A DNA stretch of 27,108 nt from Candidatus Pacearchaeota archaeon (GCA_026414385.1 JAOAJC010000007.1:1-27108), one strand, 5' to 3'; numbered from the stretch's first letter, positions 4,583-27,108 are shown. Numbers and translations: made by a program. Notes: generated by a model from the letters alone, not told the origin.

Positions 4583-4583
4583 A

Positions 4584-10605: not shown

Positions 10606-10639
10606 AAAAATATAAAAGCTTCGTTTATTTTTTATTTTT

Positions 10640-11482: not shown

Positions 11483-11603
11483 TATTCTAATTTAATTTTA
11501 TTAAATAAATTTTTAATTAAAGTGTTTGTTTCATCTTGTTTCAAGGATATTTTAAATATTGATTTTCATTAGAAAAATTATGAAAAAAACAATAAAACTG
11601 AAA

Positions 11604-11609
11604 GGAGGT
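11604..11609 (+). promoter_or_regulatory. Shine-Dalgarno site (GGAGGT)
   Basis: GGAGGT lies 8 nt upstream of the ATG at 11618. Confidence 0.5.
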
Positions 11610-11617
11610 AATGCAAA

Positions 11618-12754: not shown

Positions 12755-12758
12755 ACTC

Positions 12759-12779
12759 TTTTTTTCTTTTTTTATTTTT
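12759..12779 (+). terminator. Oligo-T tract (candidate archaeal intrinsic terminator)
   Basis: CTTTTTTTCTTTTTTTATTTTT begins 5 nt after the stop codon at 12752-12754. Archaeal RNAP terminates at oligo-T runs. Confidence 0.35.
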
Positions 12780-12889
12780 ATAAATTAAAATCCTCTTAAT
12801 AACGCTAAACACTGAATTTCTTTATTAAAACTTGCCAGACACAATGATTTTAAATATTGTTTAATACTAATTGCCATAAAAAGAGAAAA

Positions 12890-13282: not shown

Positions 13283-13336
13283 GTGCCTCATTTATATTCA
13301 TCGAAAAGTATATAAGCTTTGATAATATATACGTAT

Positions 13337-13447
13337 ATGGAAGAATTCCAAAAATTTATAGAGAGGATTCCGGAGAAAACACTTCATAGAGTTAAGGAAC
13401 TCTTCGAAAAGAAAGAAAATAGTATGCCAAATCTTCCATATGATTAA
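13337..13447 (+). CDS. 36-aa ORF directly upstream of the radical SAM gene (candidate precursor peptide; hypothetical)
   Basis: Hand-translated: MEEFQKFIERIPEKTLHRVKELFEKKENSMPNLPYD. Its TAA ends 2 nt before the ATG of the rSAM gene. A TATA-like GTATATAA lies ~30 nt upstream. No homology recognised, so calling it coding is tentative. Confidence 0.35.
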   Translation: MEEFQKFIERIPEKTLHRVKELFEKKENSMPNLPYD

Positions 13448-13449
13448 TT

Positions 13450-15135
13450 ATGGTTGATCATTCCCTTTTTGAACCTATTTCTGTAATTTGGCATATTAAT
13501 AATGTTTGTAATTCTACATGCAAATATTGTTTTACAAATGCTCAATATAGCAATACGTTTATAAGTAATAATTGCTGGCAAGAAATTGTTAAAAGAATTA
13601 ATGAGGAAAAAAGTATAAAAAGAGTTTCTATCATAGGTGGAGAGCCGTTATTAAGTTTAGATTTGCCTAGAATTCTAAATCATTTAAGAAAAGATATAAT
13701 AATAAATATAGATTCAAATTTAACAAAAATTAAAGAAATATGGAATTCTTCATTTAAAAAAGCTTACTTTTGCACAACTATAGATAGTATTATAGAAGAT
13801 ATTCATCTTAAAACTAGAGGACACTCTTCTAAAAAAACAATCGAAGGAATAAAATTCTTAATCAATAAAGGTATAAAAGTGATGGTAGTAATTGTAGTTA
13901 ATAAGTATAATATTGACTCATTAGAAAATACTATTAGATATTTAATTTCAATTGGCGTTGACAAAATAGGCATAAGCAGAACAAGAATGAGTGGAAGAGC
14001 ACTTAAAGTCGGCTATGATTATTTTTACCCTCAAAGTATTAAAGATTTTAAAAATAATACGTTCTCTATATTACAAAAATTAATAAATGAATATGGTAAA
14101 GATAAATTCATAATTTATAATCTTTGGCATGATTCTAAATTCTTTGATTTAGGGTATACTTATGAACCCAGTTGTAAATGTGCTCTCTTTCGTTTATGTA
14201 TAGATTGGGATGGTTTTGCTTATCCATGTGAACTTATGCCTTTTTATTGGGATCTTTTCAAAGAAGCATACGCTTTAGAAAGGCCGAATGTCAAAGAATC
14301 TTCAATAAAAAATATTTTTGATGACTCCAAGCTTTTTAAATTTTTTAGAAATAAAATGTTGTTTTATCCAGTTGGTTGCGAAAATTGCAAATATAAAGAA
14401 AAATGCAATCATGGGTGTCGTTTTTATTCTTTTTTAATTTCAGGTAATCTTTTGGCAAAAGATGTGGTATGTAGGGCAGATTGTCTCTATGATGTCATAG
14501 GTTATAAATATTATTCGCCTCTTTTCAAAGAAGGAAAGGAAAGAATTAACAATAAAATAGCAAAATATCTAAACAAAAATAATAATTTTTTAGGGGAAAA
14601 AATATATGATTTAGGATGTGGAGGCGGAGTATGGACATTTTATTTAGAAGGATTAGGAAAAAAAGTAATAGGTATCGATATAAACAAAACTATGATTCTA
14701 ATGGCTCAAGAATTTAAAGACATATATGATAAAAAATCCAGTTTTATATGGGGTGATGTTTTAAAATATAATTTTGATAAGGCAGACTCTGCGCTTCTTC
14801 TTGATAATATCATTTCCAATTTCAGCAAGAAAGAACTAGAACAATTAATAAATAAACTAAAAGACAAAATTAAGGCATTAATTATCGAATTTTCTGAAAG
14901 CAAATATAAAAATGAAACATATAATTATAAATTCAATGGATTTGATATCTTTGAAAAAATAGAAAAATATAAGGGTAAATTAAAAAGATTATTTAAAAAT
15001 AAACAGACTGGGGCAGAATTTGAGATTTATACTTATCCCTGGTCAAAGGAAGAACTTATTAATTTATTAAAAAAATATGGGAATATATCTGAAGAAAATA
15101 TAGGGAATTCAATTGTAATTAAATTAAGCTTTTAA
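13450..15135 (+). CDS. Radical SAM / SPASM-domain enzyme fused to a C-terminal class I SAM-dependent methyltransferase
   Basis: 561 aa. CX3CX2C (CNSTCKYC, aa 20-27) and GGEPLL (aa 63-68). SPASM cysteines: CKCALFRLC, GFAYPC (GX4C), CENCKYKEKCNHGC (CX2CX5CX3C), CRADC (aa 242-345). Methyltransferase motif I is KIYDLGCGGGVW and an acidic post-I motif is VIGIDIN (aa 384-411). Confidence 0.9.
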   Translation: MVDHSLFEPISVIWHINNVCNSTCKYCFTNAQYSNTFISNNCWQEIVKRINEEKSIKRVSIIGGEPLLSLDLPRILNHLRKDIIINIDSNLTKIKEIWNSSFKKAYFCTTIDSIIEDIHLKTRGHSSKKTIEGIKFLINKGIKVMVVIVVNKYNIDSLENTIRYLISIGVDKIGISRTRMSGRALKVGYDYFYPQSIKDFKNNTFSILQKLINEYGKDKFIIYNLWHDSKFFDLGYTYEPSCKCALFRLCIDWDGFAYPCELMPFYWDLFKEAYALERPNVKESSIKNIFDDSKLFKFFRNKMLFYPVGCENCKYKEKCNHGCRFYSFLISGNLLAKDVVCRADCLYDVIGYKYYSPLFKEGKERINNKIAKYLNKNNNFLGEKIYDLGCGGGVWTFYLEGLGKKVIGIDINKTMILMAQEFKDIYDKKSSFIWGDVLKYNFDKADSALLLDNIISNFSKKELEQLINKLKDKIKALIIEFSESKYKNETYNYKFNGFDIFEKIEKYKGKLKRLFKNKQTGAEFEIYTYPWSKEELINLLKKYGNISEENIGNSIVIKLSF

Positions 15136-15216
15136 ATAATAAAGATTGGATATTTATGTTAACTTTAAAGTAGTCAAAATAAAAATATTTAAAAATTCAA
15201 GAATGTCTTCAAAAAG

Positions 15217-15662
15217 ATGGTAAATAATTTAGAGTTTATGGTAGATTCTAATGAAAAACCAAGAAGATTAATAACTGCTGCTTTACCTTATATTAATAAT
15301 GTTCCTCATCTAGGGCATATAGTCGGATCCCATTTGCCCGCAGACATTTTTGCTAGATATTGTCGGGCTAAAGGATACGAAACATTATTTATTGGCGGAA
15401 CAGATGAAAATGGCTCCACTTCAGAAATTGCAGCATTTCAATTAAGTGTCCCTATCGAAGAATTTTCTGACAGATTACATGAACAACATAAAAGAATTTA
15501 TGAATGGTTTGGGATACAGCATGCAAGAATTTTGGTGAGAAGCATGAGATTGGAAAACCCGAGATATTATTAAAAAAATTAACTGATATTGAGATAGAAA
15601 GGTACAAAAAATTTACTTCGCAAGGAACTGACTTGAGAGATTTTTTTAAAGATATTCTTTAA
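15217..15662 (+). pseudogene. metG: Methionyl-tRNA synthetase remnant: N-terminal ~95 aa joined out of frame to the C-terminal ~45 aa (large internal deletion)
   Basis: The N-terminal part reads ITAALPYINNVPHLGHIVGSHLPADIFARYCRAKGYETLFIGGTDENGSTSEIAA......EEF.DR.HE.HKRIYEWFGI, i.e. the class I HIGH-motif region of MetRS. It then diverges and stops at 15573. The +2 frame (15504..15662) reads ...NFGEKHEIGKPEILLKKLTDIEIERYKKF..., which matches the extreme C-terminal G.k..igKPe.LF.Ki.deeIe segment of MetRS. About 400 codons of the catalytic and anticodon-binding domains are missing. Confidence 0.8.
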
Positions 15663-15720
15663 TCAGCTTTTTCATTTATCTTCCTAACCTTTCCACTTGC
15701 CTTCTTCGAAGAATAAACTA

Positions 15721-17217
15721 TCATATCTCTTTCCACCTACCTTCTTTTATATCATAACCTTTTCCCATTCCTTTCACACCAATCCAGTTTACCTTTGCTC
15801 CGCAATCTCCCAAACTTTGACATAATGTTAGTTGTCTTTTAATCCAAGAATTTCTATCAGCACACTCTCCACTCTCTGTTGTTCCTTTGATTAACGATTT
15901 TTCTTTTGTTATTACGCATTTGTCATTCGCTTGATTGCAAACCGCGCTTGCTTCAGCCCCTTCCCAAAAAATTAATCCAGGAGCAATTTTAGGAACGCAC
16001 TTCTTTCCAACCATTTTGCAATCTCTTTTGTCACTATTTTCGCAATCCTCTGTCTTGTTCTGGAAAATGCAATCTTGCCACCTATTAACTCTGCATGCTG
16101 CTTGAGAAAAATCTCCTATTTTGTCTTCTATACAAACATGCTGACGAAAATCAGCACACTGTTCCAAAACCTCTTCACCATTTATACAGATGTGCTTGTA
16201 ATACCTACTTCCAACACTATCTTCCTTATCAGTATAAACGCACCAACTCTCTCCATGTTTGTAATTCTTTCCATTTTGAGTATTATAACAATTCAAGTCA
16301 GCACACATGTATTCTCCATACATTGGCATTTTTTTTCTTTCTGCCTGTCTGCAATAACTTCCTAACAAATAATTACAATTCCCGCATGTTTTTGAGTTCA
16401 TATTTGCATTTCCTTTTCCACAAACTTCTGTCTTGTCTTTTATATTTGTCCAATATTCTTTGTCATTTATTTTAGACGCATCATAAATATTGGCAGGATT
16501 TCCACAAGAGTCAACAAAATAAACCTCATCTTTTCCGGGCAAACATGTTGTTCTTGTTGTTGGTCCGCATTTTGTTCCCAATTCCTCAGCAGAACATAAT
16601 TTTCCTGGGAAGAAAGTTGCATCTTTCATCGTAGTATTTTTTCCTTTTCCACATTGCTCTCGTGTTGTTAATTTGCATAATTTTTCAAACTCATAATCAT
16701 AAACACAAGCGCCTTTTTCTTGATTCATAACACTCATAACACAATTAACCTCATTTTTTATCTCTTGTTTGTAATTTGTCTTCAATCCTAAATATGCAGA
16801 TAGTTTCTTGCATCTCACTAATGTAACAAAAGCAGCCTGATCTCCTAAAACACAACATCCCAATTCACATTGAGCAGGTGCTTTCTCTGCCCATATTCCT
16901 TTATTGTTATTACACACTACTTGTGGCGTCCTATCAGCACAAATCCCCTCATTTGAATCATAACAAACCCCCAACTTACAATAAGAGGTTGCCTCGCAAG
17001 ATGTTGGCGCTTTTCTATAATTTTCGTCACACTGTTCAGCAGGAACATTCTGACACCACAATCCTGATTTAGTTTTTTCGCAACAAACGCTTGGAACAGT
17101 TTGCGCACTTACAAACCCAATTAATGCAAAACTCGTTATTACTAAAATTATTAACATTAATCTATTTTTTCTATTGCTTGTTTTTTCTTTCATTTTTATT
17201 ATCTGTTTATTTTCCAT
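15721..17217 (-). CDS. Secreted cysteine-rich protein (cassette A, 'C' module), unknown family
   Basis: 498 aa. Sec-type signal LMLIILVITSFALIGFVSA|Q. About 41 Cys (8%). Collinear homology to aa ~80-560 of the 1226-aa protein: GVCYDSNEGIC vs GTCFDNFEGNC, CGNCNYLLGSYC vs CGNCDYMLGSIC, HGESWC vs HGETWC, CQSLGDCGAKVNW vs CISLGDCGGKANY. It starts 9 nt after the upstream gene. Confidence 0.8.
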   Translation of the reverse strand: MENKQIIKMKEKTSNRKNRLMLIILVITSFALIGFVSAQTVPSVCCEKTKSGLWCQNVPAEQCDENYRKAPTSCEATSYCKLGVCYDSNEGICADRTPQVVCNNNKGIWAEKAPAQCELGCCVLGDQAAFVTLVRCKKLSAYLGLKTNYKQEIKNEVNCVMSVMNQEKGACVYDYEFEKLCKLTTREQCGKGKNTTMKDATFFPGKLCSAEELGTKCGPTTRTTCLPGKDEVYFVDSCGNPANIYDASKINDKEYWTNIKDKTEVCGKGNANMNSKTCGNCNYLLGSYCRQAERKKMPMYGEYMCADLNCYNTQNGKNYKHGESWCVYTDKEDSVGSRYYKHICINGEEVLEQCADFRQHVCIEDKIGDFSQAACRVNRWQDCIFQNKTEDCENSDKRDCKMVGKKCVPKIAPGLIFWEGAEASAVCNQANDKCVITKEKSLIKGTTESGECADRNSWIKRQLTLCQSLGDCGAKVNWIGVKGMGKGYDIKEGRWKEI

Positions 17218-17226
17218 CTTTTTGTT

Positions 17227-18099
17227 TTATGCAAATGTCTGAATTCCATATCCAGCAGGCCACACTAAACTTCTTGAAGCAAACACAAAATAATCTCCTG
17301 TTGTCACATCACTCACATTGTAAATTTTACTCCCGTCATTAAACACCACTAAATCCCCGCTATATAATATTTTTTCTATTTTTAAATTTGGATAATATTG
17401 CATATACAAAGTTGTCTCCGAATCTCCATAAGCTGCTTCAAAATCAATTATGCTTGTTGTTATCATAAGTAAATCATACATCTTGCTCGGAATATCAACA
17501 GAAAACTTCTCAAAAGATTGTGTTGTCTCTTCTTTTGTTATTTTCATAGGAACAATAAAATTAACTCTTATTTTGTCTAAAACTATCTCAACATCTGAAT
17601 ATATCGCTCCCATTTTTACGGAAAATCCTTTTCTCTCATATTCTGTTTTTAATGCATATGCACAAGAATTTATTTTTTGTTTTAACATTCTCTCCATCTC
17701 GCTCTCAAAAGTATTTTTTATCATTGGTTCTTGAACAATGCATGTTTTGTAATAACCATTAATATAACAAAGATATTTTATTTTCATTCCTTTATACATT
17801 AAATACCCTTCAGGATTTTCATATCCTCCTCGAGAAGCCAATATATTCACACTATTTCTAACATCATCTTTTATACAATCTCTTAAAAAATTTTCTGGAT
17901 TAAAAACTGGTGGCGCAATGCTTTCTTTTATTCTTGGATAAAGCAAAACGAGCAATATGGCTCCAACAATAACAAGAGCAACAATTACAAATATTGCTAC
18001 CTGTCCCTTCTTACTCCTCATTTCTTTTATTATCGTTTTCTCAGATTTGTTATTAATCAATTCCCCTTCACCTTCCATTGTCTTTGTTTTATCTATCAT
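17227..18099 (-). CDS. Prepilin-like (class III signal peptide) protein (cassette A, 'P' module), unknown family
   Basis: 290 aa. MRSKKGQVAIFVIVALVIVGAILLVLLY has a basic leader, G|Q and a 22-aa hydrophobic helix. The likely true start is M27 at 18021. Paralogous to 25208..25984: CIKDDVRNSVNILASRGGYENPEGY..YKGMKIKYLC vs CVRDSVNEATDIMLPQGGFIEPKNY..FNKTKITYLC. Confidence 0.8.
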   Translation of the reverse strand: MIDKTKTMEGEGELINNKSEKTIIKEMRSKKGQVAIFVIVALVIVGAILLVLLYPRIKESIAPPVFNPENFLRDCIKDDVRNSVNILASRGGYENPEGYLMYKGMKIKYLCYINGYYKTCIVQEPMIKNTFESEMERMLKQKINSCAYALKTEYERKGFSVKMGAIYSDVEIVLDKIRVNFIVPMKITKEETTQSFEKFSVDIPSKMYDLLMITTSIIDFEAAYGDSETTLYMQYYPNLKIEKILYSGDLVVFNDGSKIYNVSDVTTGDYFVFASRSLVWPAGYGIQTFA

Positions 18100-18108
18100 C
18101 TTGTTAGA

Positions 18109-20520
18109 TTATAATATCTTTTTCTTTCCAATCTCACTTGCTTTTATTTCTATAGTGCACTCATTTGGATTAGGTTCGTTTCCATACTCGTCTATGCACT
18201 TAATATAATAAATAACGTTCGGTTTCCACTCAACATATTGTATCCACTTAATGTTCGGGTTTGAATAAACAAGAGGTATTCCTTCTACAATATTAAAATT
18301 GCAATCACTTAACGAATATCTACACTCTGCATTTTCGTTTGTTGTTATTTTTATCCCTGTTCCTTCTTCCTTATAAACTCTTGTGACTTTTGGAGCATCT
18401 TTATCAACAAAAATCTCAAACATTGTTGAGTTCTTTGCGCTATTTCCACCTGCATCAACGCAAGTTACATAATATCTATAAACCCCGCTTGCTAAACTCA
18501 ATCTTTGTTTATGCTTATAACTATTTGTCTCAAACATCTGCACAAAATCTCTCTCATTTTCAGTTGGCGAGAAATAACAAATCGCTTTTCCTTCTTCTGC
18601 ACCATCTCCTGTTATAACTTCTAAATCAACATCAACAATGCTTGTCGCTCCTGTTATTATCCCATTTGGCCCAATACTTTCTATTGTTAAAGGTATTGTC
18701 CCTTTTAAATTAAGTTCATAGCTCTGCACCATTACATTTCTCTCATTTTCCGGCTTCTCTGGTTGATCCTTGCATCTAAAATAAAATTTGTTGTTTTCTT
18801 TGTCTTTTATTCCACTTAAATTTCCAGCACAAGTATAACTCATAATTGCATTAATCTCTCTTGCTGTTCTTGCACAATTCATTGAATTTTCCATATTTTC
18901 ATATGGCTTGCTTTCTTTGCTCCATCTGCACTCTGCTGGCTCATTCACATAAATTTCTATAGGAACATTGTCAACTTTATAAGAAACATAATTGTTTGTC
19001 CCTATTGAACTATCTTGTATAATTGGTGGAGTTGTGTCAGGCCCTTTATCAACACAAAACTCTATGACAAATTCATCAACATTATAATTTCCATTTGCGT
19101 CTCTACACCTCACATAAAATGTCATTGTCCCGTCATTCTTTATTATTGGCGCAGTTTCTCCCTTTGTCTCATCAAATACATCAGGCCCAGGCAATTTCAA
19201 TTCTTGCGTATGATTATAATCATAAAGATTTGTCTCTCCAAAATAAAATGACATATTCTCATATGAATTGGGGTGTTCATAATCAATTTTACATTGTGTT
19301 GGTTCGTTTGTTCTTATGCCAAATTTCAAGGGAGTGAATGGTGCCAAACACTTAGTTGATGTTTTATCATTCACAATTTTAACACCTCTTGCCCCTGGTC
19401 TTATAGCGCCTAATGGCGCATACCTTAATCCAATTGGGTATAGTGTTTCTTCAGCAGCAGTTATTATCGGAGATGTAACATCTTTCGGATTAACCCATGC
19501 GCATTTTTCGTCAGCAGTCCCTTTATTTAATAACTGGCATGCCTGTCCCAAACTCCTACACCTATACTCTGAACAAGGTTTAAATTTGTCTGCATTGCAT
19601 TTTTCACAATCTTTACCTCCAACAGGAGGCTCATAAGGCAAACATGTAAATGATATTTTTTTCTTGTATTCCTCTTTATACATCAGCGCAAAAACAATAG
19701 CTGCAACAGCAACTCCTATTCCTATTCCAACTACTTGAGCTTTTGTCAAACCCCAAAGTGCTGTTTGTCCTATTTTCTTAGCCTCTGCAATTCCCAAAGT
19801 TATTTTATATGCAAGTACTCCTGCAGCAAGCGCACTGCTAATTGCTAATGATTCGCCTTTTTTTGCCCCAACAGCATTTGCTATCATAAATGAGGTGCCA
19901 AATACAGTAGCTCCCCATAATAACCCCTCCCCCAAATGCTTCCAGAATACCCTCCCTTCTATTGCACCACTTGTTAATCCTGCTTCTTGCGCAGCTTTGA
20001 ATTCTTCTGAAGTTAAAGTTACATCATTACCTCCCTCTTTATAATCCTCCCACTTTCCACTTTCTTTATTTTTAACTTGCACCTTATAAATTCCTTTTTC
20101 ATATTTAACTTGTGCATTCTCAGGTATACTTATTTTCTTTTGACCAATCGTCAATTGCCTAGCAGCATTATCCCTAAATGAGAAAGTTTCTCCTTCTCTT
20201 GGGATTTTTGTTACATGTATACCCTGCCCATTGCTCGTCCCAATTGGATTATTAAGTTTAGTTTTATCTTCTGCCCCTTGGTTTTTTTGTTCATTGGATG
20301 AGTCTGCTCTCCTTGTTGCACTATCTTGGTTAACGGATGATGGCTCATTTTTTGTTGCACTATCTTGCTTAACGGATGATGGCTTATGATTTCCATTTTG
20401 TCCACTAACAAATTTTATCTCACCAATCATAAAGCAAAAGGCAAAAGTTGCTATAATTAAAATAAAAATCTCACTTATGGCAAACCCTTTAAGATACAAT
20501 TTATACCCTCTTTTAATCAT
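18109..20520 (-). CDS. Large membrane/surface protein with a prepilin-like N-terminus, a central hydrophobic block and four tandem beta-sandwich-like repeats (cassette A, 'X' module)
   Basis: 803 aa. N-terminus MIKRGYKLYLKG|FAISEIFILIIATFAF. S/Q/D-rich linker with a 13-aa duplication. Hydrophobic helices span aa ~195-280. A Cys-knot-like segment reads CLPYEPPVGGKDCEKCNADKFKPCSEYRCRSLGQAC. Four repeats follow, each with (T/V)NEP..C(K/R)(I/W/Y) ... Y(V/F/I)(R/T/K)C.D..GN. Confidence 0.85.
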   Translation of the reverse strand: MIKRGYKLYLKGFAISEIFILIIATFAFCFMIGEIKFVSGQNGNHKPSSVKQDSATKNEPSSVNQDSATRRADSSNEQKNQGAEDKTKLNNPIGTSNGQGIHVTKIPREGETFSFRDNAARQLTIGQKKISIPENAQVKYEKGIYKVQVKNKESGKWEDYKEGGNDVTLTSEEFKAAQEAGLTSGAIEGRVFWKHLGEGLLWGATVFGTSFMIANAVGAKKGESLAISSALAAGVLAYKITLGIAEAKKIGQTALWGLTKAQVVGIGIGVAVAAIVFALMYKEEYKKKISFTCLPYEPPVGGKDCEKCNADKFKPCSEYRCRSLGQACQLLNKGTADEKCAWVNPKDVTSPIITAAEETLYPIGLRYAPLGAIRPGARGVKIVNDKTSTKCLAPFTPLKFGIRTNEPTQCKIDYEHPNSYENMSFYFGETNLYDYNHTQELKLPGPDVFDETKGETAPIIKNDGTMTFYVRCRDANGNYNVDEFVIEFCVDKGPDTTPPIIQDSSIGTNNYVSYKVDNVPIEIYVNEPAECRWSKESKPYENMENSMNCARTAREINAIMSYTCAGNLSGIKDKENNKFYFRCKDQPEKPENERNVMVQSYELNLKGTIPLTIESIGPNGIITGATSIVDVDLEVITGDGAEEGKAICYFSPTENERDFVQMFETNSYKHKQRLSLASGVYRYYVTCVDAGGNSAKNSTMFEIFVDKDAPKVTRVYKEEGTGIKITTNENAECRYSLSDCNFNIVEGIPLVYSNPNIKWIQYVEWKPNVIYYIKCIDEYGNEPNPNECTIEIKASEIGKKKIL
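20313..20390. repeat. Two tandem copies of a 39-bp unit inside the X-module linker
   Basis: TTGTTGCACTATCTTGGTTAACGGATGATGGCTCATTTT is followed by a near-identical second copy starting at 20352. It encodes PSSVKQDSATKN/EPSSVNQDSATRR on the minus strand. Confidence 0.8.
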
Positions 20521-20585
20521 TTATTAATATAAGAAACCTTATTTATAAATTCTTTCTATCCTTTTTAAATAATTTGAAATACTTT

Positions 20586-21236
20586 TTAGTCACCAACTAC
20601 CTCAAATTTAACTACACCAATTGTTGTACCATCTTCACAAGTTAATTTTGCTATATAAGTTCCTATAGGTAAGCATCGTAGCGTCTCCCCCAAATTAAAA
20701 CGATAATTATAATTTATTTCCGAAAACTTAAAAATGCCTTCATATATTATTTTACCATCAATTCTTTTTAAACTAAATTCTTTAGTTCCTGGTATTGTGC
20801 AATCATAAACACAAAAAGATATGGGCTCTTTATTTGTAAAAACATTTCTACCCCTCCCTATATATTCATCTAATTCACCACAACCATTTTTATTTGTATC
20901 TTCAAAAGTATTAAAAACAAAAAAATAATTTGTTGGGAGTATCTCCTCGGGCTGACGCTGTCGCTCAACAATAATTACCTTAGGTTCTCTTGCCCCAACA
21001 GCTTCTTTCATTGCTTCGCGATTTGCTAAGCTACCTTGAAAGCTAGACAAAGCACCCCATGCAGCAGCCTCCTTTACACTCCCAGCAGTTATAGCATTAT
21101 ATGAGCTAGCAGCACTACCAGCAGCATACAAAGGAAAACATCCAGAATTAAGGAGACCTCCAGCAATAGCTGTTAATCCCAATACAGAATTTCTTGCTTT
21201 TTTCCCTATTTTCTCCAATAAACTCATATTTTTCAC
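20586..21236 (-). CDS. Hypothetical membrane/lipoprotein-like protein between the two cassettes
   Basis: 216 aa. N-terminus SVLGLTAIAGGLLNSGC is lipobox-like. An Ala/Gly/Ser-rich stretch follows, then a C-terminal domain ending ...TYIAKLTCEDGTTIGVVKFEVVGD (beta-sandwich-like). No family recognised. Confidence 0.65.
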   Translation of the reverse strand: MKNMSLLEKIGKKARNSVLGLTAIAGGLLNSGCFPLYAAGSAASSYNAITAGSVKEAAAWGALSSFQGSLANREAMKEAVGAREPKVIIVERQRQPEEILPTNYFFVFNTFEDTNKNGCGELDEYIGRGRNVFTNKEPISFCVYDCTIPGTKEFSLKRIDGKIIYEGIFKFSEINYNYRFNLGETLRCLPIGTYIAKLTCEDGTTIGVVKFEVVGD

Positions 21237-21537
21237 AATATTCTAAAATATATAAATCTTTCTATTTGTTGTTACTATAAAGAAGGTATACTTTTTTATT
21301 TTTTTTCTATATTATCAGTTCAAAATCTTTTAACATTTTCTTATTGTTTTGAATGCTTTTTGTAATCTACCCTAATAATTTTCTTGTCAATTACTTTTTT
21401 AGATTAGCAAATACGCTTTTTTCTATCTAACCAAGTTTGTAGAAATACTTTTTAAATTATTTTGTTCTTTTAATATTCTTTGTTCTTGATAATTCTTCTT
21501 TTAAGCAAAACCTTTTGAGATGTTTTTTTAACAACTT

Positions 21538-24500
21538 TCAAAAATTAACCCCTCTTACACTAATAGCACATTGCCCTGGCTTATTTTCAAATTCATCTTT
21601 ACACATAATATATCTTGTCTGTTTCTTGGCAAAATTCTCGCTATGCACAAACGCATTTCCTTGCATTAAGGTTCCATTTGCATAATTAAAATCACACTTT
21701 TCAAAACTATAAACACACTCCGCCTTTTCGTTAGTTATAACATAAAGCACATTGTTTTTGTTATAAACCCTTGTTATTTTTGGCTCTTCATTGTCAATTC
21801 TTACACTAAACAATGAAACATCTTCAGCAACATTTCCAATTTCATCTTCACATTTAATAACAATTCTCTTTTCTTCGCTTCCAAATATGTCATTTCTCGT
21901 TATCGCATTGAATATTTGTTTATGAACATTCTTTCCTGTCTCCATAAATCTAATAAATGATTCCCCGACCTTATAACTGCATTTAGCGTTGCCATTCAAT
22001 CCTCCTGTTGTTTTCAAACTTAATTTAACACTCATCGGCTCCACACCAGAAACAAGAACACTTCCATTTCCAGGTTCAATGTTCGTAATCTTTAATGGAT
22101 TTGTTTTTTTCAATGTAAATGAATAACTATTTGTCATTGTATTTCTCTTTCCTTCATCAACTCCTTTTAACCATGGCTGATCTATGCACCTTACGTAGAT
22201 ATTTTCTTCATTTTTAATTAAATTAATTGTTGCATTGCACTCGTAAGCAAGGTATGATTTAAATCTAATAGCATCCTCATCAGCACAATCAAAAACATTT
22301 TTCATACTCTCATAATCTTTATTTTCATAATCCCACTTGCATTCAGCTGGTTCATTGACAAAAATACTTATTTCTTGTAAATTAGTATCTGCTTTAACAA
22401 AATTTATTTCAGGGATTTTACCCAATACAATCGGTCCACTATTATCCTCTCCAGGTTTAATACACATACTAACAACATAATTAACAGGATTTTCATAACC
22501 ATTTCCATTTCTGCATTTTATAAAAATCTTAAAATCTATTTTTTCATTAGGTTTGGAAAGCGTTGCTCCAAAACTCTCTGGAGAAGGAACGAAAAATTCA
22601 ATTTTATGATTATCTTTGAATAATCCCCCACTTAAAGCATGCATATCATCAAACGCAACAATTTCCTCTGTCTCTTCACCAGAAACAATATAGCTGCACT
22701 GTCCTAATTTATCAAGAGCAATGCCAAAATTAAACTTATAATATGATTTTATGCAACCATCTTCCTCATTAGTTTTTATGGTAAATCCTCTATCTGTAAT
22801 ATCAACATAACTATATCCTTCTGGTAACACTCCATCAAGTTGCTTTATTTTTGGTGGCACCACATCATTTTTATTAACCCATCTGCAACTTGCAATCCCT
22901 GTCTCACTTTCATCAAAATATTTACATTCTCTCCCTAAACTCTCACATGCGTATTTCCCACAAGGCAATCCATCACTCCCGCACTTCCAGCAATTTTCTC
23001 CTCCATATTTTGCTTGCCACGGCAAACACTCATATGTTATTGACACCCTATTTGTGTCGCCTATACCTATTCCATATACCATTATTATAACTGCAATAAT
23101 TGCATATGGGGCTGTCCAAGGTGCATAAACAAGAGCAGTTAAGGCATTTACTTCTTCTTCACTTAATCCTCTAGAAAATCTATCTAATATATTAGCATTT
23201 CCGGTGCCCAAAAGTATGAGCCCTATTGGCCCGCCGACTATTGCTCCTGCTATTTTTAAACTTGCTGGCCCTTGTTTCGCTTCAACCTGTCGTTTTAAAA
23301 TTGCAGTTGTTGAACCGCTTGTTCCTTTTATCTTTGAAATTATTTTTAAGAACTTTTCCGTTAAACTCTCATTTTTTAACAATATCTCGGCATACAATTG
23401 CGCATATGGATTTATGTCAATAAAATTATCTTTCGTCTCATTTGCATAAATTATTGTTATCTCTTTTCCAGCATCATAATTTAATAATTTTTTCAAATTT
23501 TTTGTTTTTGAATTCCCCTGCTTGCTAACTTTAAAATTCTTAACATAATCTCCCAAATAATTCGCTTTTCCACCGCAATCTCCCAAACTAATACACATAT
23601 CGTTCATTTTTTCTATAAACTCTTCTTTTAAACAATCACAATTCACCTTACAATCCCAACCACTCGTTGTTTTTACTTCTGCCACTTTGCATTTTTTTGT
23701 TGCAAATCCGCATTTTTCTTCAACGCTCTCAATATCTTCTCTATCTCTATTAAAACCTACAGGATATTTCGGAGCGCACTCTGCAACAGCAAATTTCTTA
23801 CTTATGCTAACGTTTTTTATATAACAATCTGGATTTTTAATGCACTCTTCGAATATTTTTGTTTTGTCAGCTTTTTTCTCTTTTAATTTTTCATTTATCT
23901 CCACGCACTCACTCCCCCTATTAGCAGAACATCCTGCTTGCGAAAATAGCTTCCCCATTCCGATATCAATTCTTGCTTCTCTACATACCTCTGCCCTATA
24001 ATCTTGACATGGCTGTATTCTAACCACTCCATCAACACAACTCATAACAAAATGCCTGCTTCCAGGCAAATCCATCGCATTCATTGTTTTATTATCTATT
24101 CCAGTTAAACTTTGATAATGGCACCATGTTTCTCCATGTTCTCTTTTATTTCCCCACTCGTCAATGCACGATAAATCTCTACAAACAAAATTTTGCATAC
24201 TATCATCAAGCTTTTGTTCGTTCGTCTTATTCCCGCAAATGCTTCCTAACATATAATCACAATTCCCGCATGTTCCTCTATTCATAAAAGGATTATTTGC
24301 TGTCCCTAATGAACAGCTCTTTTCCTTACTCAAAACCATTCCATTATTCCAACTTCTTGCTTTGTTTGCATCATAAATATTCTCTCTATTCCCACAAGAA
24401 TCAAACCAATAAACTTCGTCTTTCCCTTTAACACACCCAGAACTTTTCTGTCTCTCGCATTTTGTCTTTAACTCAGGATTAGAACAAAGATAGTTTGGAT

Positions 24501-25218
24501 AAAACTCTCCTCTTTTTTGTTCGCATTCTTGTCTTGTCCCAAATTTGCAAACATTATAATCATCTTCTTTTCCTATAATACACGCCCCTTCTTCTTGCGT
24601 CTTTGTTGCAAGCCAGCAATCAATCTCATTTGTTATCTCTCTCTTAAAATTCATTTCAATTCCTTTTCTTTTTGACAAAATCTCGCATCTTTTCTCTGTT
24701 ACAAATTCAGTTTTTTCTCCTATAATGCAGCACCTTTTCTCACAAACATTAACATTTCCATTTGGTTCATTATACCATATGCCTCCTTTTTGTTCGCATC
24801 TTTTCTTCGGTGAAATTATACAATTTCCTTCAAAATTATCAAAACAAGTTCCTATTTTACACTCTTCTGTTTCATCCATCTCTAAAGGAATGCAATTATC
24901 CTTGCAAATACTATTACAAATACTTGAATTGTACTCTTGGCAATATTTTCCATCTTTTGTCTCTATGCATGTTGCAATAACCTCTTCTTGCGCAGATACC
25001 AACCCTTTCTCACTAAAAATGCTTTTTACTAATTTTTCATAAAATAACATAAAAATCTCAATCTTGCTCTTTGAGTTTTTCTTTTGCTCAATCACATTTT
25101 TCTCTCTTATCTCAAAACTTTCGCGAATAAAATAAGAAAATGCAAAAATCATTCCAATTAATAAAATAATCTGCACGATTGCTTTGAAACTCTCGTTCTT
25201 TTTCATCTTAAAAACCAA
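21538..25218 (-). CDS. Giant fusion protein: Cys-rich 'C' module (aa ~80-560), hydrophobic block (aa ~650-720) and 'X'-type repeat module (aa ~725-1226)
   Basis: 1226 aa. The N-terminal anchor is KAIVQIILLIGMIFAFSYFI. An alternative start, MKKNESF at 25206, lies 1 nt after the upstream stop. The N-terminal half aligns to the 498-aa protein and has ~43 Cys. The C-terminal half aligns to aa ~290-803 of the 803-aa protein: ECLPWQAKYGGENCWKCGSDGLPCGKYACESLGREC, VNEPAECKWD, YVRCIDQPW, TNEKAECVYS. Confidence 0.85.
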   Translation of the reverse strand: MVFKMKKNESFKAIVQIILLIGMIFAFSYFIRESFEIREKNVIEQKKNSKSKIEIFMLFYEKLVKSIFSEKGLVSAQEEVIATCIETKDGKYCQEYNSSICNSICKDNCIPLEMDETEECKIGTCFDNFEGNCIISPKKRCEQKGGIWYNEPNGNVNVCEKRCCIIGEKTEFVTEKRCEILSKRKGIEMNFKREITNEIDCWLATKTQEEGACIIGKEDDYNVCKFGTRQECEQKRGEFYPNYLCSNPELKTKCERQKSSGCVKGKDEVYWFDSCGNRENIYDANKARSWNNGMVLSKEKSCSLGTANNPFMNRGTCGNCDYMLGSICGNKTNEQKLDDSMQNFVCRDLSCIDEWGNKREHGETWCHYQSLTGIDNKTMNAMDLPGSRHFVMSCVDGVVRIQPCQDYRAEVCREARIDIGMGKLFSQAGCSANRGSECVEINEKLKEKKADKTKIFEECIKNPDCYIKNVSISKKFAVAECAPKYPVGFNRDREDIESVEEKCGFATKKCKVAEVKTTSGWDCKVNCDCLKEEFIEKMNDMCISLGDCGGKANYLGDYVKNFKVSKQGNSKTKNLKKLLNYDAGKEITIIYANETKDNFIDINPYAQLYAEILLKNESLTEKFLKIISKIKGTSGSTTAILKRQVEAKQGPASLKIAGAIVGGPIGLILLGTGNANILDRFSRGLSEEEVNALTALVYAPWTAPYAIIAVIIMVYGIGIGDTNRVSITYECLPWQAKYGGENCWKCGSDGLPCGKYACESLGRECKYFDESETGIASCRWVNKNDVVPPKIKQLDGVLPEGYSYVDITDRGFTIKTNEEDGCIKSYYKFNFGIALDKLGQCSYIVSGEETEEIVAFDDMHALSGGLFKDNHKIEFFVPSPESFGATLSKPNEKIDFKIFIKCRNGNGYENPVNYVVSMCIKPGEDNSGPIVLGKIPEINFVKADTNLQEISIFVNEPAECKWDYENKDYESMKNVFDCADEDAIRFKSYLAYECNATINLIKNEENIYVRCIDQPWLKGVDEGKRNTMTNSYSFTLKKTNPLKITNIEPGNGSVLVSGVEPMSVKLSLKTTGGLNGNAKCSYKVGESFIRFMETGKNVHKQIFNAITRNDIFGSEEKRIVIKCEDEIGNVAEDVSLFSVRIDNEEPKITRVYNKNNVLYVITNEKAECVYSFEKCDFNYANGTLMQGNAFVHSENFAKKQTRYIMCKDEFENKPGQCAISVRGVNF

Positions 25219-25984
25219 CAGGTATTACACACCCCCTTACAGCAAAATTCATTTTCTTGCCAGAACTTATGTCTTTCAAGCTATATAGTTTAACAGAATC
25301 AGAAGTTACGTATAACCTTATGTCAATCTCAGGATACATCATCATATACCCTGTATATTCAAAAGAACAATATTTTGCTTCATTATTAACAATTTCGATA
25401 GCAACATTAATTAAGTCATATGCTGGATTTGTAATTTCAATTAAAAATTTATCAAAACTAATTTTTGTCTCTCCCTTGCTTGCAATTATTTTTTTCTCAA
25501 CATCAACAATTATCTTTCCTTTAGTCATTGAAATGCTAATGTTTGTTTTTTCACTTTTGATTTCATAATTTTTTCTTTTCAATGCAAAAATTAAATTATT
25601 GATACAATTCTCAATTTTTGGTTCAGCATAAATCAAAATTTCATTATTTATCTCGTTAATAAGCATTGGATGTTGATTTATACAAGGCTTATAATTGCCT
25701 GCATTCTCGCACAAATAAGTTATCTTTGTCTTATTAAACAATTTATAATTTTTCGGCTCAATAAACCCTCCTTGTGGAAGCATAATGTCAGTTGCTTCAT
25801 TAACACTATCTCTAACGCACTTCTCTATTCCTGATTTCAAATCAACTTCCACGCTTGGAACAGGGACAAATCTCTCCCGCATAAACAAAAATACTAAAAA
25901 ACCCACAACAATAATAACTGCAATAATAACATATATAGCAATCTGCCCTCTTTTTCCCATTTTATTATTCTTGCCTTTTTCCAT
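25208..25984 (-). CDS. Prepilin-like (class III signal peptide) protein (cassette B, 'P' module)
   Basis: 258 aa. MGKRGQIAIYVIIAVIIVVGFLVFLF (likely start M9 at 25960). Paralog of 17227..18099 along its whole length. Confidence 0.8.
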   Translation of the reverse strand: MEKGKNNKMGKRGQIAIYVIIAVIIVVGFLVFLFMRERFVPVPSVEVDLKSGIEKCVRDSVNEATDIMLPQGGFIEPKNYKLFNKTKITYLCENAGNYKPCINQHPMLINEINNEILIYAEPKIENCINNLIFALKRKNYEIKSEKTNISISMTKGKIIVDVEKKIIASKGETKISFDKFLIEITNPAYDLINVAIEIVNNEAKYCSFEYTGYMMMYPEIDIRLYVTSDSVKLYSLKDISSGKKMNFAVRGCVIPVGF

Positions 25985-25998
25985 ATATAAACTTATTT

Positions 25999-27108
25999 TT
26001 ATCCTTTAGTAACCACTAAACAATCCTCCTGAACATTTCCAAAATAATCCGTGCATCTTAGATATATTGGTTTTTTAACTGTAAAATCTGCTTTATGCAC
26101 AAACTCTTTACCTTCCATTAAAATCCATTTTCCATAATCTCCTTCGCACCCATCGCGATTATAAACACACTCCGCCTTTTCGTTAGTTATAACATAAAGC
26201 ATATCTTCCTTGTCATAAACCCTTGTTATTTTTGGCTCTTCGTTATCTATTTTGACTTTGAATCTTGCTATTCCTTCTGCAACATTCCCGATAGAATCCT
26301 CACATTTTATCTCTATTGTCTTTTCCTCATCTCCAAAAATATCATTTTTCCATAATGAATTAAATATCTGTGAATGTTTGCTTCCAAAAGTTGTTGAGAA
26401 TTCAACATATTTCTCTCCTACTTTATAACTACATTTTGCGCTATTATCTATCCCTCCTTTTGTTTCTAAACTTAATTCAATCGTTGCAGGTTCAAATCCT
26501 AAAACTATCTCTTCATTATGTGGCTTAATATTATCAATTTTTAACATCAGAGTTTTCTTTAAGTTAAATGAATAGCTTCTTGTCATTGCATTTCTAAAAC
26601 TTTCGTTAATTCCTTTCAACCATGGTTGGTCCTTACACCTCACATATAAAGTAGTATTTTCTTCGATAGGCAACACCCCATAACATCCATATGCAATCAC
26701 TCCAGCATACATTCTCTCATCTTCATATAAACAATCAAAGGTGTTGTTCATTTCATCATAATTTTTGTCAATCCTATCCCATTTGCACTCTGACGGCTCA
26801 TTAAGGTATATTGTAACATTTGAATTTATAGTATTAGCAAGGACAAATCCATTAATTGGCTCATATCCTAAAATTATCGGTTCAGCAACATCTTCTCCAG
26901 CTTTTAAGCACATACTAATCACAAAATCTGCTTTGTTTTCATATCCGTTTACATTCACGCATTTCACAATCAAGTCAAGCATTATTTGTTCATCAAAACC
27001 AACTATCCCCAAACTACTTAAACTCGGAGCCATAAAAGGCATCGTATGATTATATGCAAAAGCACTTCTCTCCCCAAAATAATATGGCATTTGTTTATAA
27101 TCTATGCT
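25999..27108 (-). CDS. 'X'-type repeat protein, C-terminal part only (the 5' end lies beyond the window edge)
   Basis: The frame is open to the window end (…SIDYKQMPYYFGE aligns with KIDYEHPNSYENMSFYFGE of the 803-aa protein). About 60-70% identity by eye to aa ~860-1226 of the 1226-aa protein: IDNEEPKITRVYDKEDMLYVITNEKAECVY vs IDNEEPKITRVYNKNNVLYVITNEKAECVY. Confidence 0.85.
   Translation of the reverse strand, partial: SIDYKQMPYYFGERSAFAYNHTMPFMAPSLSSLGIVGFDEQIMLDLIVKCVNVNGYENKADFVISMCLKAGEDVAEPIILGYEPINGFVLANTINSNVTIYLNEPSECKWDRIDKNYDEMNNTFDCLYEDERMYAGVIAYGCYGVLPIEENTTLYVRCKDQPWLKGINESFRNAMTRSYSFNLKKTLMLKIDNIKPHNEEIVLGFEPATIELSLETKGGIDNSAKCSYKVGEKYVEFSTTFGSKHSQIFNSLWKNDIFGDEEKTIEIKCEDSIGNVAEGIARFKVKIDNEEPKITRVYDKEDMLYVITNEKAECVYNRDGCEGDYGKWILMEGKEFVHKADFTVKKPIYLRCTDYFGNVQEDCLVVTKG

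What the first reader, a model, noticed from the sequence alone, without database searches (positions are those of the whole stretch)
15721..27108. 11.4 kb minus-strand array of paralogous X-P-C surface-protein cassettes with no recognisable family
Seen directly: seven consecutive minus-strand genes fill the last 42% of the window. Within each cassette the gaps are only 9-14 nt or overlaps (20520>18109, 18099>17227, 17217>15721; and >27108>25999, 25984>25208, 25218>21538). The same three protein types recur in the same order. X is a membrane protein with a Cys-knot-like segment and tandem ~110-aa repeats. P is a ~260-290 aa protein with a KGQ prepilin-type leader. C is a secreted protein with ~8% cysteine. 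All three have secretion or anchoring signals, and I recognise no enzymatic motif in any of them. Inference: this is a duplicated, co-transcribed module that builds an extracellular, possibly pilus-associated structure. In a DPANN-type archaeon that depends on contact with a host cell, an adhesion or host-interaction apparatus is a plausible role. I could not match X, P or C to a named family by eye, so the module may be undescribed.
Basis: partly seen in the sequence, partly recalled or inferred. Interest (0 to 1): 0.8.

Follow-up and report, generated by a model that had tools for sequence, protein, structure and literature searches.

The report
Conserved DPANN surface-protein gene cluster, uncharacterised
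The last 11 kb of this Pacearchaeota contig holds a rearranged copy of a gene cluster conserved across Pacearchaeota and Woesearchaeota; it encodes pilin-like, cysteine-rich and Ig-repeat membrane proteins with no known relatives, and probably builds a core cell-surface complex.

Summary
The seven minus-strand genes and their paralogy are real (BLASTP E 1e-35 to 1e-114), but the cassettes were mis-parsed. The 1226-aa "C" is a fusion: a C domain (aa 37-556) followed by a full X module (aa 637-1223). The window therefore holds 3 X, 2 P and 2 C modules plus a lipoprotein-like gene.

In 80 species-level Pacearchaeota/Woesearchaeota genomes, out of 182 with a C relative, the conserved order is P1, CX fusion, P2, C, lipoprotein, X. 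The cluster sits in the same housekeeping neighbourhood as in the window. The window is a local rearrangement, with Lp-X moved ahead of P2-C and an extra X/CX upstream.

- **P** has an invariant [KR]-G-Q leader plus a hydrophobic stretch, which is a class III (prepilin-type) signal.
- **X** has a membrane hairpin, a six-Cys knot and four Ig-like repeats.
- **C** has 43 conserved cysteines.

Confident AF2 models of C and P match nothing in PDB, and the C model nothing in BFVD. Pfam, NCBIfam, PHROGs and PADLOC give no family.

C, X3 and P2 are about as conserved as aminoacyl-tRNA synthetase. That fits a core envelope complex better than a fast-evolving adhesin. No pilus ATPase is linked. The function is unknown and I found no description of the cluster.

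The parts
25999..27108 (-). X1: the C-terminal 369 aa of a third X-type module. The gene runs off the contig end, and it is probably the end of a second CX-type fusion.
   Evidence: It is 50% identical to aa 867-1223 of the CX protein (E 1e-114) and 30% to X3. Locus L035 shows a comparable extra P1-CX unit upstream of the canonical cluster.
25208..25984 (-). P1: a 258-aa pilin-like protein with a K-R-G-Q leader and a hydrophobic helix. It is the partner of the CX fusion.
   Evidence: Its orthologues, 30-50% identical, sit directly upstream of CX in about 70 loci.
21538..25218 (-). CX: a 1226-aa fusion protein, or 1222 aa if it starts at ATG 25206. Its parts in order are an N-terminal signal/anchor, a Cys-rich C domain (aa ~77-560, window 23539-24990), a membrane hairpin (aa ~640-715), a six-Cys knot and four Ig-like repeats (aa ~720-1226, window 21541-23061).
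   Evidence: Aa 37-556 align to C2 (E 2e-71) and aa 637-1223 align to X3 (E 1e-69). The C domain holds 43 Cys and the X part 21. Fusions of ~1200-1400 aa occur in nearly all related loci and make up about a third of the top 150 representatives of the C family.
20586..21236 (-). Lp (g216): a 216-aa lipoprotein-like protein with an 'LLNSGC' lipobox-like motif. It may start at ATG 21227. It belongs to the fast-evolving family encoded immediately upstream of X.
   Evidence: lipobox-like [LS][SGA]GC in most ORFs directly upstream of X. In one search, jackhmmer gave 55 hits in the loci, and 30 of them are the ORF directly upstream of X.
18109..20520 (-). X3: an 803-aa membrane protein. Its parts in order are an N-terminal signal/anchor (aa 15-38), a variable region (aa 40-180), hydrophobic segments at about 200-219 and 262-280, a six-Cys knot (aa 293-340) and four Ig-like repeats (aa 346-796).
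17227..18099 (-). P2: a 290-aa pilin-like protein with a K-K-G-Q leader, probably starting at an internal Met near aa 27. It has four conserved Cys and an alpha/beta globular domain.
   Evidence: The AF2 model has pLDDT 85.8 and pTM 0.74. No PDB fold match was found.
15721..17217 (-). C2: a 498-aa secreted protein with a Sec-type signal ending in VSA|Q. The mature part holds 41 Cys.
   Evidence: The AF2 model has pLDDT 88.3 and pTM 0.72. No significant match was found in PDB or BFVD.
21249..21256 (-). TTTATATA, a TATA-box-like element about 25 nt upstream of ATG 21227 of Lp. It lies inside the 301-nt AT-rich spacer after CX.
   Evidence: Read directly from the sequence. Its function as a promoter is an inference.
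20542..20549 (-). TTTATAAA, a TATA-box-like element about 25 nt upstream of ATG 20520 of X3.
   Evidence: Read directly from the sequence. Its function as a promoter is an inference.

Best explanation
The region is a locally rearranged copy of a chromosomal gene cluster specific to Pacearchaeota and Woesearchaeota. I propose that it encodes a heteromeric cell-envelope complex built from two ancient paralogous sets of three modules plus a lipoprotein.

**Shown**
- Each set has three modules. P has a class III (prepilin-type) signal. C is a Sec-secreted protein dominated by cysteines. X is a membrane protein with a hydrophobic hairpin followed by a six-Cys knot and four Ig-like domains.
- In set 1, C and X are one polypeptide (CX). 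In set 2 they are separate genes.

**Inferred mechanism**
- C docks on X outside the membrane. The fusion is the main evidence. A disulfide may contribute, because free C and free X each carry an odd number of conserved cysteines (43 and 21) and the fusion carries 64.
- A prepilin peptidase encoded elsewhere trims P after the invariant Gly. P then keeps its N-terminal hydrophobic helix as a membrane or inter-subunit anchor.
- The two sets, with the lipoprotein encoded upstream of X, form a stable surface structure. It could be a spike, a stalk or an S-layer-associated anchor, and it appears to belong to the basic cell envelope of these archaea.
- Contact with a host cell is one possible use of this structure. 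The housekeeping-level conservation points to a structural core role rather than a variable adhesin.
For: - **Paralogy and fusion:**
- **Conserved order:** P1-CX-P2-C-(Lp)-X recurs in about 70 of 80 species-level loci, and 182 genomes encode a C relative.
- **Chromosomal context:** the compact canonical form in L087 is flanked by Hjc, DUF5667, DUF7343, AspRS, DUF362, an RNA methyltransferase, TruB, L31e and S19e. The window has the same genes.
- **Two P genes per locus:** a P profile finds exactly two in 66 loci.
- **Class III signal:** the [KR]-G-Q motif is conserved in P.
- **Shared leader:** X and CX share an N-terminal motif, so CX is an X whose variable ectodomain is replaced by the C domain.
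- **Cysteine counts:** 43, 21 and 4 conserved Cys columns in C, X and P.
- **Ig-like repeats in X:**
- **Conservation:** C 56%, X3 49% and P2 47% median identity, against AspRS 51%, DUF362 55% and TruB 60%.
- **Tight gene coupling:** 9-14 nt gaps or an overlap.
- **Envelope neighbours in a subclade:** four small pilin-like genes and an S_layer_C protein follow X.
- **Not viral or mobile:** no IMG/VR relative of C and no PHROGs or PADLOC hit.
Against: - No experiment or expression data exist for any member.
- The C-X and P interactions are inferred from gene fusion, gene order and cysteine arithmetic only. I could not inspect model coordinates or run a multimer prediction.
- P does not match curated archaeal pilin N-terminal Pfam models or any solved pilin fold.
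- I could not test whether a prepilin peptidase is present in this genome.
- The topology of X (two or three membrane segments; signal cleaved or retained) comes from hydropathy alone.
- The odd cysteine counts could equally reflect a free thiol, a metal ligand or a lipid-modified Cys.
Confidence: 0.5

Rival explanations
1. The cluster is a true type IV filament module. P1 and P2, together with the small pilin-like proteins found next to X in some genomes, would be minor or major pilins. A PilB/FlaI-type ATPase and platform encoded elsewhere would polymerise them. C and X would form the tip adhesin or the base of the pilus.
For: - P has a canonical class III leader.
- In one subclade, four further small proteins follow X, several with [KR]-G-type leaders plus a hydrophobic stretch.
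- A T2SSE-family ATPase occurs in this lineage, and in one locus it lies 0.8 kb from C.
- Published surveys report type IV filament systems in DPANN genomes.
Against: - The cluster is not systematically linked to an ATPase, platform or peptidase. In the 87 fetched loci (±10 kb flanks where the contig allowed) a Walker-A motif screen found one ATPase.
- P is large (~250 aa mature). It has no hit to pilin Pfam families and no Foldseek similarity to any solved pilin.
- Each locus has exactly two P genes, each paired with a C/CX gene. That looks like 1:1 complex stoichiometry rather than a polymerising major subunit.
Confidence: 0.2
2. The cluster is a host-contact or uptake apparatus. The complex would recognise and hold the host cell, or form part of a conduit for taking up lipids and metabolites. 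The variable N-terminal region of X and the fast-evolving lipoprotein would act as specificity elements.
For: - The lineage is genome-reduced and thought to depend on hosts (Castelle et al. 2021).
- X aa 40-180 and Lp are highly variable while the rest is conserved.
- Ig-like repeats and cysteine-rich ectodomains are common in adhesins. The best, non-significant, Foldseek hits for C are fibronectin FnI modules, Pvs25 and the Entamoeba lectin.
Against: - C, X3 and P2 evolve as slowly as housekeeping enzymes. That is unusual for host-specificity determinants spread over 180+ species from very different habitats.
- No channel-forming, lytic or transport domain was detected.
- No host is known for any member.
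Confidence: 0.2
3. The arrangement is fortuitous, or the genes are cargo of a virus or mobile element rather than a functional unit.
For: This contig shows a local rearrangement, a truncated MetRS next to the cluster and an extra X/CX copy.
Against: - The same gene set in the same order sits in the same housekeeping neighbourhood in dozens of species.
- No relative of C occurs in IMG/VR.
- No PHROGs or PADLOC hit was found.
- Orthologues are closer to each other than paralogues are.
Confidence: 0.02

Closest known systems
Archaeal type IV filament (class III signal peptide) surface systems: pili, archaella and the Sulfolobus bindosome (Makarova et al. 2016, PMC4858521; bioRxiv 10.64898/2026.04.22.720090)
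   Same: P1 and P2 have the defining N-terminus: a short basic leader, [KR]-G at the cleavage site and then about 20 hydrophobic residues. Like bindosome sugar-binding proteins (my own knowledge), P is a large globular protein using a pilin-type leader rather than a small pilin.
   Different: - No assembly ATPase, platform or peptidase is in or near the cluster.
- P matches no pilin Pfam family and no solved pilin fold.
- The partner families C and X are not components of any described archaeal type IV filament locus.
Bacterial type IVa pilus tip complex (minor pilins plus the PilY1 adhesin) and T2SS pseudopilus tip
   Same: Several pilin-like proteins are encoded together with a large non-pilin surface protein. 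In one subclade, four small pilin-like genes lie next to X.
   Different: No sequence or fold similarity to PilY1 or to minor pilins was detected. X is an integral membrane protein, which PilY1 is not. The resemblance is only organisational and rests on my recall of those systems.
Module 98 of Castelle et al. 2021 (PMC8204110): 51 protein families specific to Pacearchaeota and Woesearchaeota, mostly of unknown function, many membrane-bound or extracellular
   Same: The taxonomic restriction matches, as do the lack of annotation and the predicted extracellular or membrane location. X, P and C very probably belong to this catalogue.
   Different: That paper lists families only. I could not verify membership because the supplementary table was not held in full. 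I found no description there of the gene cluster, the C-X fusion, the prepilin-type leader or the paralogous sets.
Cysteine-rich surface proteins of eukaryotic parasites and FnI/EGF-type disulfide modules (fibronectin FnI, Plasmodium Pvs25, Entamoeba Gal/GalNAc lectin)
   Same: The composition is similar: small beta-hairpin modules stapled by many cysteines. These are the top Foldseek hits for the C model.
   Different: The hits are not significant (best E 0.037 over 73 columns; TM normalised to the query at most 0.12). There is no sequence similarity, so this is an analogy and not homology.

Membership tests
Type IV pilin-like proteins (class III signal peptide substrates) | N-terminus with a short basic leader, G/A at -1 and about 20 hydrophobic residues immediately after | tested here: met
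   P1 has K-R-G-Q-IAIYVIIAVIIVV and P2 has K-K-G-Q-VAIFVIVALVIVG. G and Q are invariant in 30 sequences and present in at least 90% of 121. X and CX have a different conserved leader with no consistent G/A at -1, so they do not meet this feature.
Type IV pilin-like proteins (class III signal peptide substrates) | Match to curated archaeal pilin or class III signal models (for example Pfam Pilin_N, Class_IIIsignal) | tested here: not met
   A Pfam scan of 30 P-family members at E <= 0.1 gave no pilin family and no family shared by more than 3 members. The window proteins gave none either.
Type IV pilin-like proteins (class III signal peptide substrates) | Pilin fold: a long N-terminal helix packed on a beta-sheet, similar to solved pilins | tested here: not met
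   The AF2 model of P2 (pLDDT 85.8) has helix 32-60 and then a separate alpha/beta domain. Foldseek against PDB gave no match at E <= 1e-3 and no pilin among the top 50.
Type IV filament systems | Genetic linkage with an assembly ATPase (T2SSE), a platform protein and a prepilin peptidase | tested here: not met
   - None of these genes is in the window.
- Pfam-annotated flanks of 7 loci show none.
- The recurrent neighbours are housekeeping genes.
- A Walker-A motif screen of all 87 loci found one T2SSE ATPase, in L026.
- Genome-wide presence of these genes could not be tested.
Type IV filament systems | Cleavage of the leader by a PibD/FlaK-type peptidase and assembly into a filament | not testable with these tools
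   This needs biochemistry or imaging.
Bacterial Ig-like domain proteins (Pfam Big_13 and related) | Significant match to the domain model | tested here: inconclusive
   The window X3 scores 20.2 bits against a cut-off of 27 (E 9e-4). However, 47 of 58 family members hit Big_13 (best E 7e-8), 23 hit DUF4625 and 13 hit Y_Y_Y. The four repeats are mutually homologous. An Ig-like beta-sandwich is likely, but I made no structure model of X.
Archaeal S-layer proteins (Pfam S_layer_C / S_layer_N) | Match to S-layer domain models | tested here: not met
   X, P, C and Lp give no hit. A separate S_layer_C protein lies 3 kb downstream of X in L003, L085 and L086.
Lipoproteins (lipobox) | Signal peptide ending in a [LVI][ASTG][GA]C-type lipobox | tested here: inconclusive
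   Window Lp has LLNSGC. Most ORFs directly upstream of X in other genomes have [LS][SGA]GC about 20-35 residues from the start. I ran no lipoprotein predictor, and archaeal lipoprotein processing is poorly defined.
Multihaem cytochromes / Fe-S proteins (alternative reading of the high Cys content) | CxxCH haem motifs or clustered CxxC ferredoxin motifs | tested here: not met
   C2, CX and X3 have no CxxCH motif and only one or two CxxC motifs each.

The most novel reading that the evidence does not exclude
P, C, X and Lp form a previously unrecognised type of archaeal envelope machine, unrelated to pili, archaella or S-layers. In this reading it borrows only a prepilin-type leader, is held together by an intermolecular C-X disulfide, and is essential to the cell architecture or host-dependent lifestyle of the whole Pacearchaeota/Woesearchaeota radiation.
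Probability: 0.3. Interest if true: 0.8.

Novelty: new variant of a known kind. Interest (0 to 1): 0.6.

Why it matters
Pacearchaeota and Woesearchaeota are among the most abundant and least understood archaea. None is in pure culture, and most of their lineage-specific proteins have no annotation.

This analysis turns six "hypothetical proteins" into a defined cluster present in at least 182 species genomes. The cluster has a clear architecture:
- two paralogous P/C/X sets;
- a natural C-X fusion that predicts a physical interaction;
- a prepilin-type leader that predicts a processing enzyme;
- cysteine counts that predict a disulfide link.

Its housekeeping-level conservation marks it as a likely core feature of the cell envelope of this radiation. 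That makes it a good target for cryo-ET, metaproteomics and heterologous expression. It is also a candidate marker or antigen for labelling and enriching these cells.

The confident AF2 models of C and P have no counterpart in the PDB, which is of interest for fold discovery.

Tried and rejected
**Searches of all seven proteins or family profiles that gave nothing usable**
- Pfam, NCBIfam, PHROGs and PADLOC scans gave only sub-threshold Ig-like hits in X.
- phmmer and profile hmmsearch against PDB sequences for X, P and C gave nothing.
- Foldseek of the C2 model against PDB and BFVD, and of the P2 model against PDB, gave no match at E <= 1e-3.

**Readings rejected**
- Viral or mobile origin: no C relative in IMG/VR.
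- Cytochrome or Fe-S protein for C: no CxxCH motif.
- X and CX as class III signal substrates: their conserved leader has [EQ] where a +5 Glu would sit, but no consistent G/A at -1.
- The small pilin-like proteins downstream of X as P paralogues: the P profile does not find them.

**Literature**
- Five full-text searches and six papers found no description of the cluster.
- Castelle 2021 lists lineage-specific families, but the relevant supplementary table was not available in full.

- A structure model of X.
- Any multimer model.
- A genome-wide search for prepilin peptidase, ATPase or platform genes in the same genomes.


Full report
**1. What is in the window**

The window is a whole 27,108-bp contig of a low-GC archaeon. 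It carries the 3' part of an archaeal LSU rRNA, an archaeal RNase P RNA and tRNA-Phe. NCBI assigns its proteins to a "Candidatus Pacearchaeota archaeon" MAG, locus tags N3D20_02145-02155. Positions 2240-15573 hold mainly ordinary housekeeping genes: S19e, L31e, CofD, TruB, an RNA methyltransferase, DUF362, AspRS, DUF7343, DUF5667, Hjc, a radical-SAM/SPASM-methyltransferase fusion and a truncated MetRS.

| Gene | Coordinates | Length |
|---|---|---|
| C2 | 15721-17217 | 498 aa |
| P2 | 17227-18099 | 290 aa |
| X3 | 18109-20520 | 803 aa |
| 216-aa gene (Lp) | 20586-21236 | 216 aa |
| 1226-aa gene (CX) | 21538-25218 | 1226 aa |
| P1 | 25208-25984 | 258 aa |
| X1 | 25999 to contig end | 369 aa, partial |

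The gaps X3/P2, P2/C2 and X1/P1 are 9-14 nt. P1 and the 1226-aa gene overlap or abut, depending on which start codon is used.

**2.

All-against-all BLASTP confirms paralogy far beyond chance. It also shows that the 1226-aa protein is not simply a "C".
- Residues 37-556 align with C2 (33% identity, E 2e-71).
- Residues 637-1223 align with X3 (31%, E 1e-69) and with X1 (50%, E 1e-114).

It is a C-X fusion, which I call CX. The region therefore contains three X modules, two P and two C.

In transcription order the genes are X1(partial) - P1 - CX - Lp - X3 - P2 - C2. The apparent "X-P-C, X-P-C" periodicity arises because the fusion's X half was overlooked and because this contig is rearranged (section 3).

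**3. Related genomes show the real unit**

Each family is large, and every member carries only the name "hypothetical protein".
- X has at least 374 homologues.
- P has 394 and C has 1,654.
- All come from Pacearchaeota, Woesearchaeota or "Nanoarchaeota" MAGs, and none has a precomputed Pfam domain other than faint Ig-like hits in X.

A profile of C against 1.84 billion representative proteins finds 1,644 clusters at 50% identity, 935 of them at E <= 1e-30. Among the top 150, nearly all fall into two length classes: free C of about 500-600 aa and CX of about 1,200-1,350 aa.

A scan of one genome per GTDB species found 182 genomes with a C relative. I analysed the best 80 loci by BLASTing their ORFs against the window proteins. 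About 70 loci show the same co-directional order: P1 -> CX (1,230-1,400 aa) -> P2 -> C (~500 aa), followed 0.1-8 kb downstream by X (700-850 aa).

Locus L087 has the compact form P1-CX-P2-C-Lp-X. It is followed by Hjc, DUF5667, DUF7343, AspRS, DUF362, an RNA methyltransferase, TruB, L31e and S19e. The window has the same housekeeping genes in the same relative order. The window locus is therefore orthologous and chromosomal. It differs in three ways:
- the Lp-X3 block lies in front of P2-C2;
- an extra X/CX copy lies upstream of P1, and L035 has a comparable P1-CX-P1-CX-P2-C-X arrangement;
- a radical-SAM gene and a MetRS remnant are inserted at the boundary.

Orthologues in different genomes are more similar than paralogues within a genome. 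P2 orthologues are 36-56% identical and C orthologues 42-62%, whereas paralogues are 31-33% identical. The duplication into two sets is therefore ancient, and both sets are retained. A P-family profile finds exactly two P genes in 66 loci.

**4. The seventh gene belongs to the cluster**

In nearly every locus the ORF directly upstream of X encodes a 130-290-aa protein with a signal peptide ending in a lipobox-like [LS][SGA]GC. The window's 216-aa protein has LLNSGC. A jackhmmer search started from it recovers 55 ORFs in the loci, and 30 of them are the gene immediately upstream of X. The family evolves fast; plain BLAST found only one hit.

**5. Anatomy of the three main families**

*P*
- An alignment of 121 sequences has a nearly invariant [KR]-G-Q followed by about 20 hydrophobic residues. 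Many orthologues start only 3-10 residues before it. This is the class III (prepilin-type) signal.
- Four Cys are conserved.
- The AF2 model is confident (pLDDT 85.8, pTM 0.74). It shows helix 32-60 and then an alpha/beta domain.
- It matches no PDB structure (best E 5e-3, TM ~0.1). No pilin Pfam family hits any of 30 members.

*C*
- It has a Sec-type signal (VSA|Q) and 43 conserved Cys columns.
- The AF2 model is confident (pLDDT 88.3, pTM 0.72) and consists mainly of short beta-hairpins.
- Foldseek finds nothing significant in PDB or BFVD. The best hits are a fibronectin FnI pair (E 0.037, 73 columns), Pvs25 and the Entamoeba lectin, which are compositional analogues.
- It has no CxxCH motif, so it is not a cytochrome.

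*X*
- It starts with a basic N-terminus and a hydrophobic segment carrying a conserved [EQ]-I-F-L-L-[IV]...FAF...E motif, usually followed by a VSA-type site.
- A variable, poorly aligned region follows at aa 40-180.
- Conserved hydrophobic segments lie near aa 200-219 and 262-280.
- From aa 281 to 796 there is a highly conserved block. It holds a six-Cys knot (C-x11-CxxC-x7-CxxxxC-x6-C-x11-C) and four mutually homologous Ig-like repeats (hhalign probability 61-96%; Big_13 in 47 of 58 members).
- CX proteins carry the same N-terminal motif as X. CX is thus an X whose variable ectodomain is replaced by the C domain.

**6. Clues to how it works**

(a) The natural fusion of C and X in one paralogous set, with separate genes in the other, is classic "Rosetta stone" evidence that C and X act together physically. 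This is an inference.

(b) Cysteine arithmetic points the same way. Free C has 43 conserved Cys and free X has 21, both odd numbers. The window's CX has 43 + 21 = 64, and P has 4. This fits one intermolecular C-X disulfide.

(c) P is paired 1:1 with C or CX and is translationally coupled to it, which suggests a stoichiometric subunit rather than a polymerising pilin.

(d) Conservation against the window across 21 loci, as median identity:

| Cluster protein | Identity | Housekeeping protein | Identity |
|---|---|---|---|
| C | 56% | Hjc | 68% |
| X3 | 49% | TruB | 60% |
| P2 | 47% | DUF362 | 55% |
| P1 | 41% | AspRS | 51% |
| CX | 37% | | |

Set 2 is as constrained as housekeeping enzymes. The variable parts are the X N-terminal region and Lp.

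(e) In one subclade (L003, L085, L086 and about 17-20 loci in total), X is followed by four small proteins with hydrophobic N-termini, several with [KR]-G-type leaders. A gene for an S_layer_C protein comes next. The neighbourhood is therefore an envelope locus.

(f) No pilus ATPase, platform or peptidase is linked to the cluster. A Walker-A motif screen of the 87 loci found one T2SSE ATPase, near C in L026.

(g) TATA-like boxes lie about 25 nt upstream of the ATGs of Lp and X3. This suggests at least three transcription units: X1-P1-CX, Lp, and X3-P2-C2. This too is an inference.

**7. Interpretation**

The best-supported reading is a conserved, lineage-specific envelope complex made of two paralogous P/C/X sets plus a lipoprotein.
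- C is bound to X on the outer face of the membrane.
- P is trimmed by a prepilin peptidase and anchored by its N-terminal helix.

I give this reading a confidence of 0.5. The slow evolution argues that it is a structural part of the cell surface.

A true pilus module (0.2) and a host-contact or uptake apparatus (0.2) remain possible, and they overlap with the main reading. A fortuitous arrangement or a mobile origin is excluded by the synteny, the housekeeping context and the absence from IMG/VR.

**8. Comparison with known systems and novelty**

The only firm tie to a known kind is P's class III signal. Every other test of membership in the pilin or type IV filament families failed: Pfam models, pilin fold and linkage to assembly machinery. 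C and P have confident models with no PDB counterpart.

I found no description of the cluster in the literature I could search. Castelle et al. 2021 list 51 unannotated families specific to Pacearchaeota and Woesearchaeota (Module 98), many of them membrane-bound or extracellular. That list probably includes these families, but I could not verify it.

I classify the finding as a new variant of a known kind, namely archaeal surface assemblies that use prepilin-type leaders. I put the chance that it is a categorically new envelope machine at about 0.3.

The interest lies in its ubiquity and conservation in a major uncultured radiation, and in the concrete predictions it yields: C-X binding, a possible C-X disulfide, and prepilin peptidase processing of P.

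Noticed in passing
window 15217-15720: A truncated methionyl-tRNA synthetase gene. Only the N-terminal 118 aa are in frame (Pfam tRNA-synt_1g positions 2-85 of 391). A short C-terminal-looking stretch follows in another frame up to about 15690. It looks like a deletion remnant or pseudogene, or an assembly artefact, and it sits exactly at the boundary of the surface-protein cluster.
   Followed up: partly
window 13450-15135: A 561-aa fusion of a radical-SAM/SPASM domain with a class I SAM methyltransferase. It lies between Hjc and the cluster. It is absent from this position in the related locus L087, where X abuts Hjc.
   Followed up: partly
window 18109-20520 (aa 12-38) and 21538-25218 (aa 10-33); X and CX homologues generally: The N-terminal hydrophobic segment of X and CX carries a conserved [EQ]-I-F-L-L-[IV]...FAF...E motif, found in 105 of 120 X and 42 of 55 CX sequences. 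That is far more conserved than an ordinary signal peptide. It is not a canonical class III signal, and its meaning is unknown.
   Followed up: partly
window C2 15721-17217, X3 18109-20520, CX 21538-25218: The numbers of conserved cysteines are odd in free C (43 columns) and in free X (21 columns), and even in the fusion (64). This hints at an intermolecular C-X disulfide.
   Followed up: partly
L003 12097-17678; L085 12308-18103; L086 12442-18333: In one subclade, X is followed by four small proteins (about 155-320 aa) with hydrophobic N-termini, several with [KR]-G-type leaders. Next come an antisense HVO_A0114-family gene and an ~810-870-aa S_layer_C protein. The window contig has no equivalent, and it ends inside the cluster.
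   Followed up: partly
L026 2338-3444: A 368-aa T2SSE-family (type II/IV secretion) ATPase lies between Hjc and AspRS, 0.8 kb from the C gene, in one Woesearchaeota genome. It was the only such ATPase that a Walker-A motif screen found in the 87 fetched loci.
   Followed up: yes
window 1-1590: The 3' 965 nt of an archaeal 23S rRNA lie at the contig start. An archaeal RNase P RNA (1138-1457, minus strand) and tRNA-Phe (1519-1590, minus strand) follow.
   Followed up: yes
window 5123-6052: A CofD-family (2-phospho-L-lactate transferase-like) gene lies on the minus strand among ribosomal-protein and tRNA-modification genes. In L087 a DNA_alkylation-family gene occupies that position instead.
   Followed up: no
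L001 5414-22151: In one 'Nanoarchaeota' genome the X orthologue is separated from the P/C genes. It sits among other large surface proteins: NosD/beta-helix, a Peptidase_S8-NosD fusion, a dockerin-like protein and a 3,745-aa laminin-G protein.
   Followed up: no
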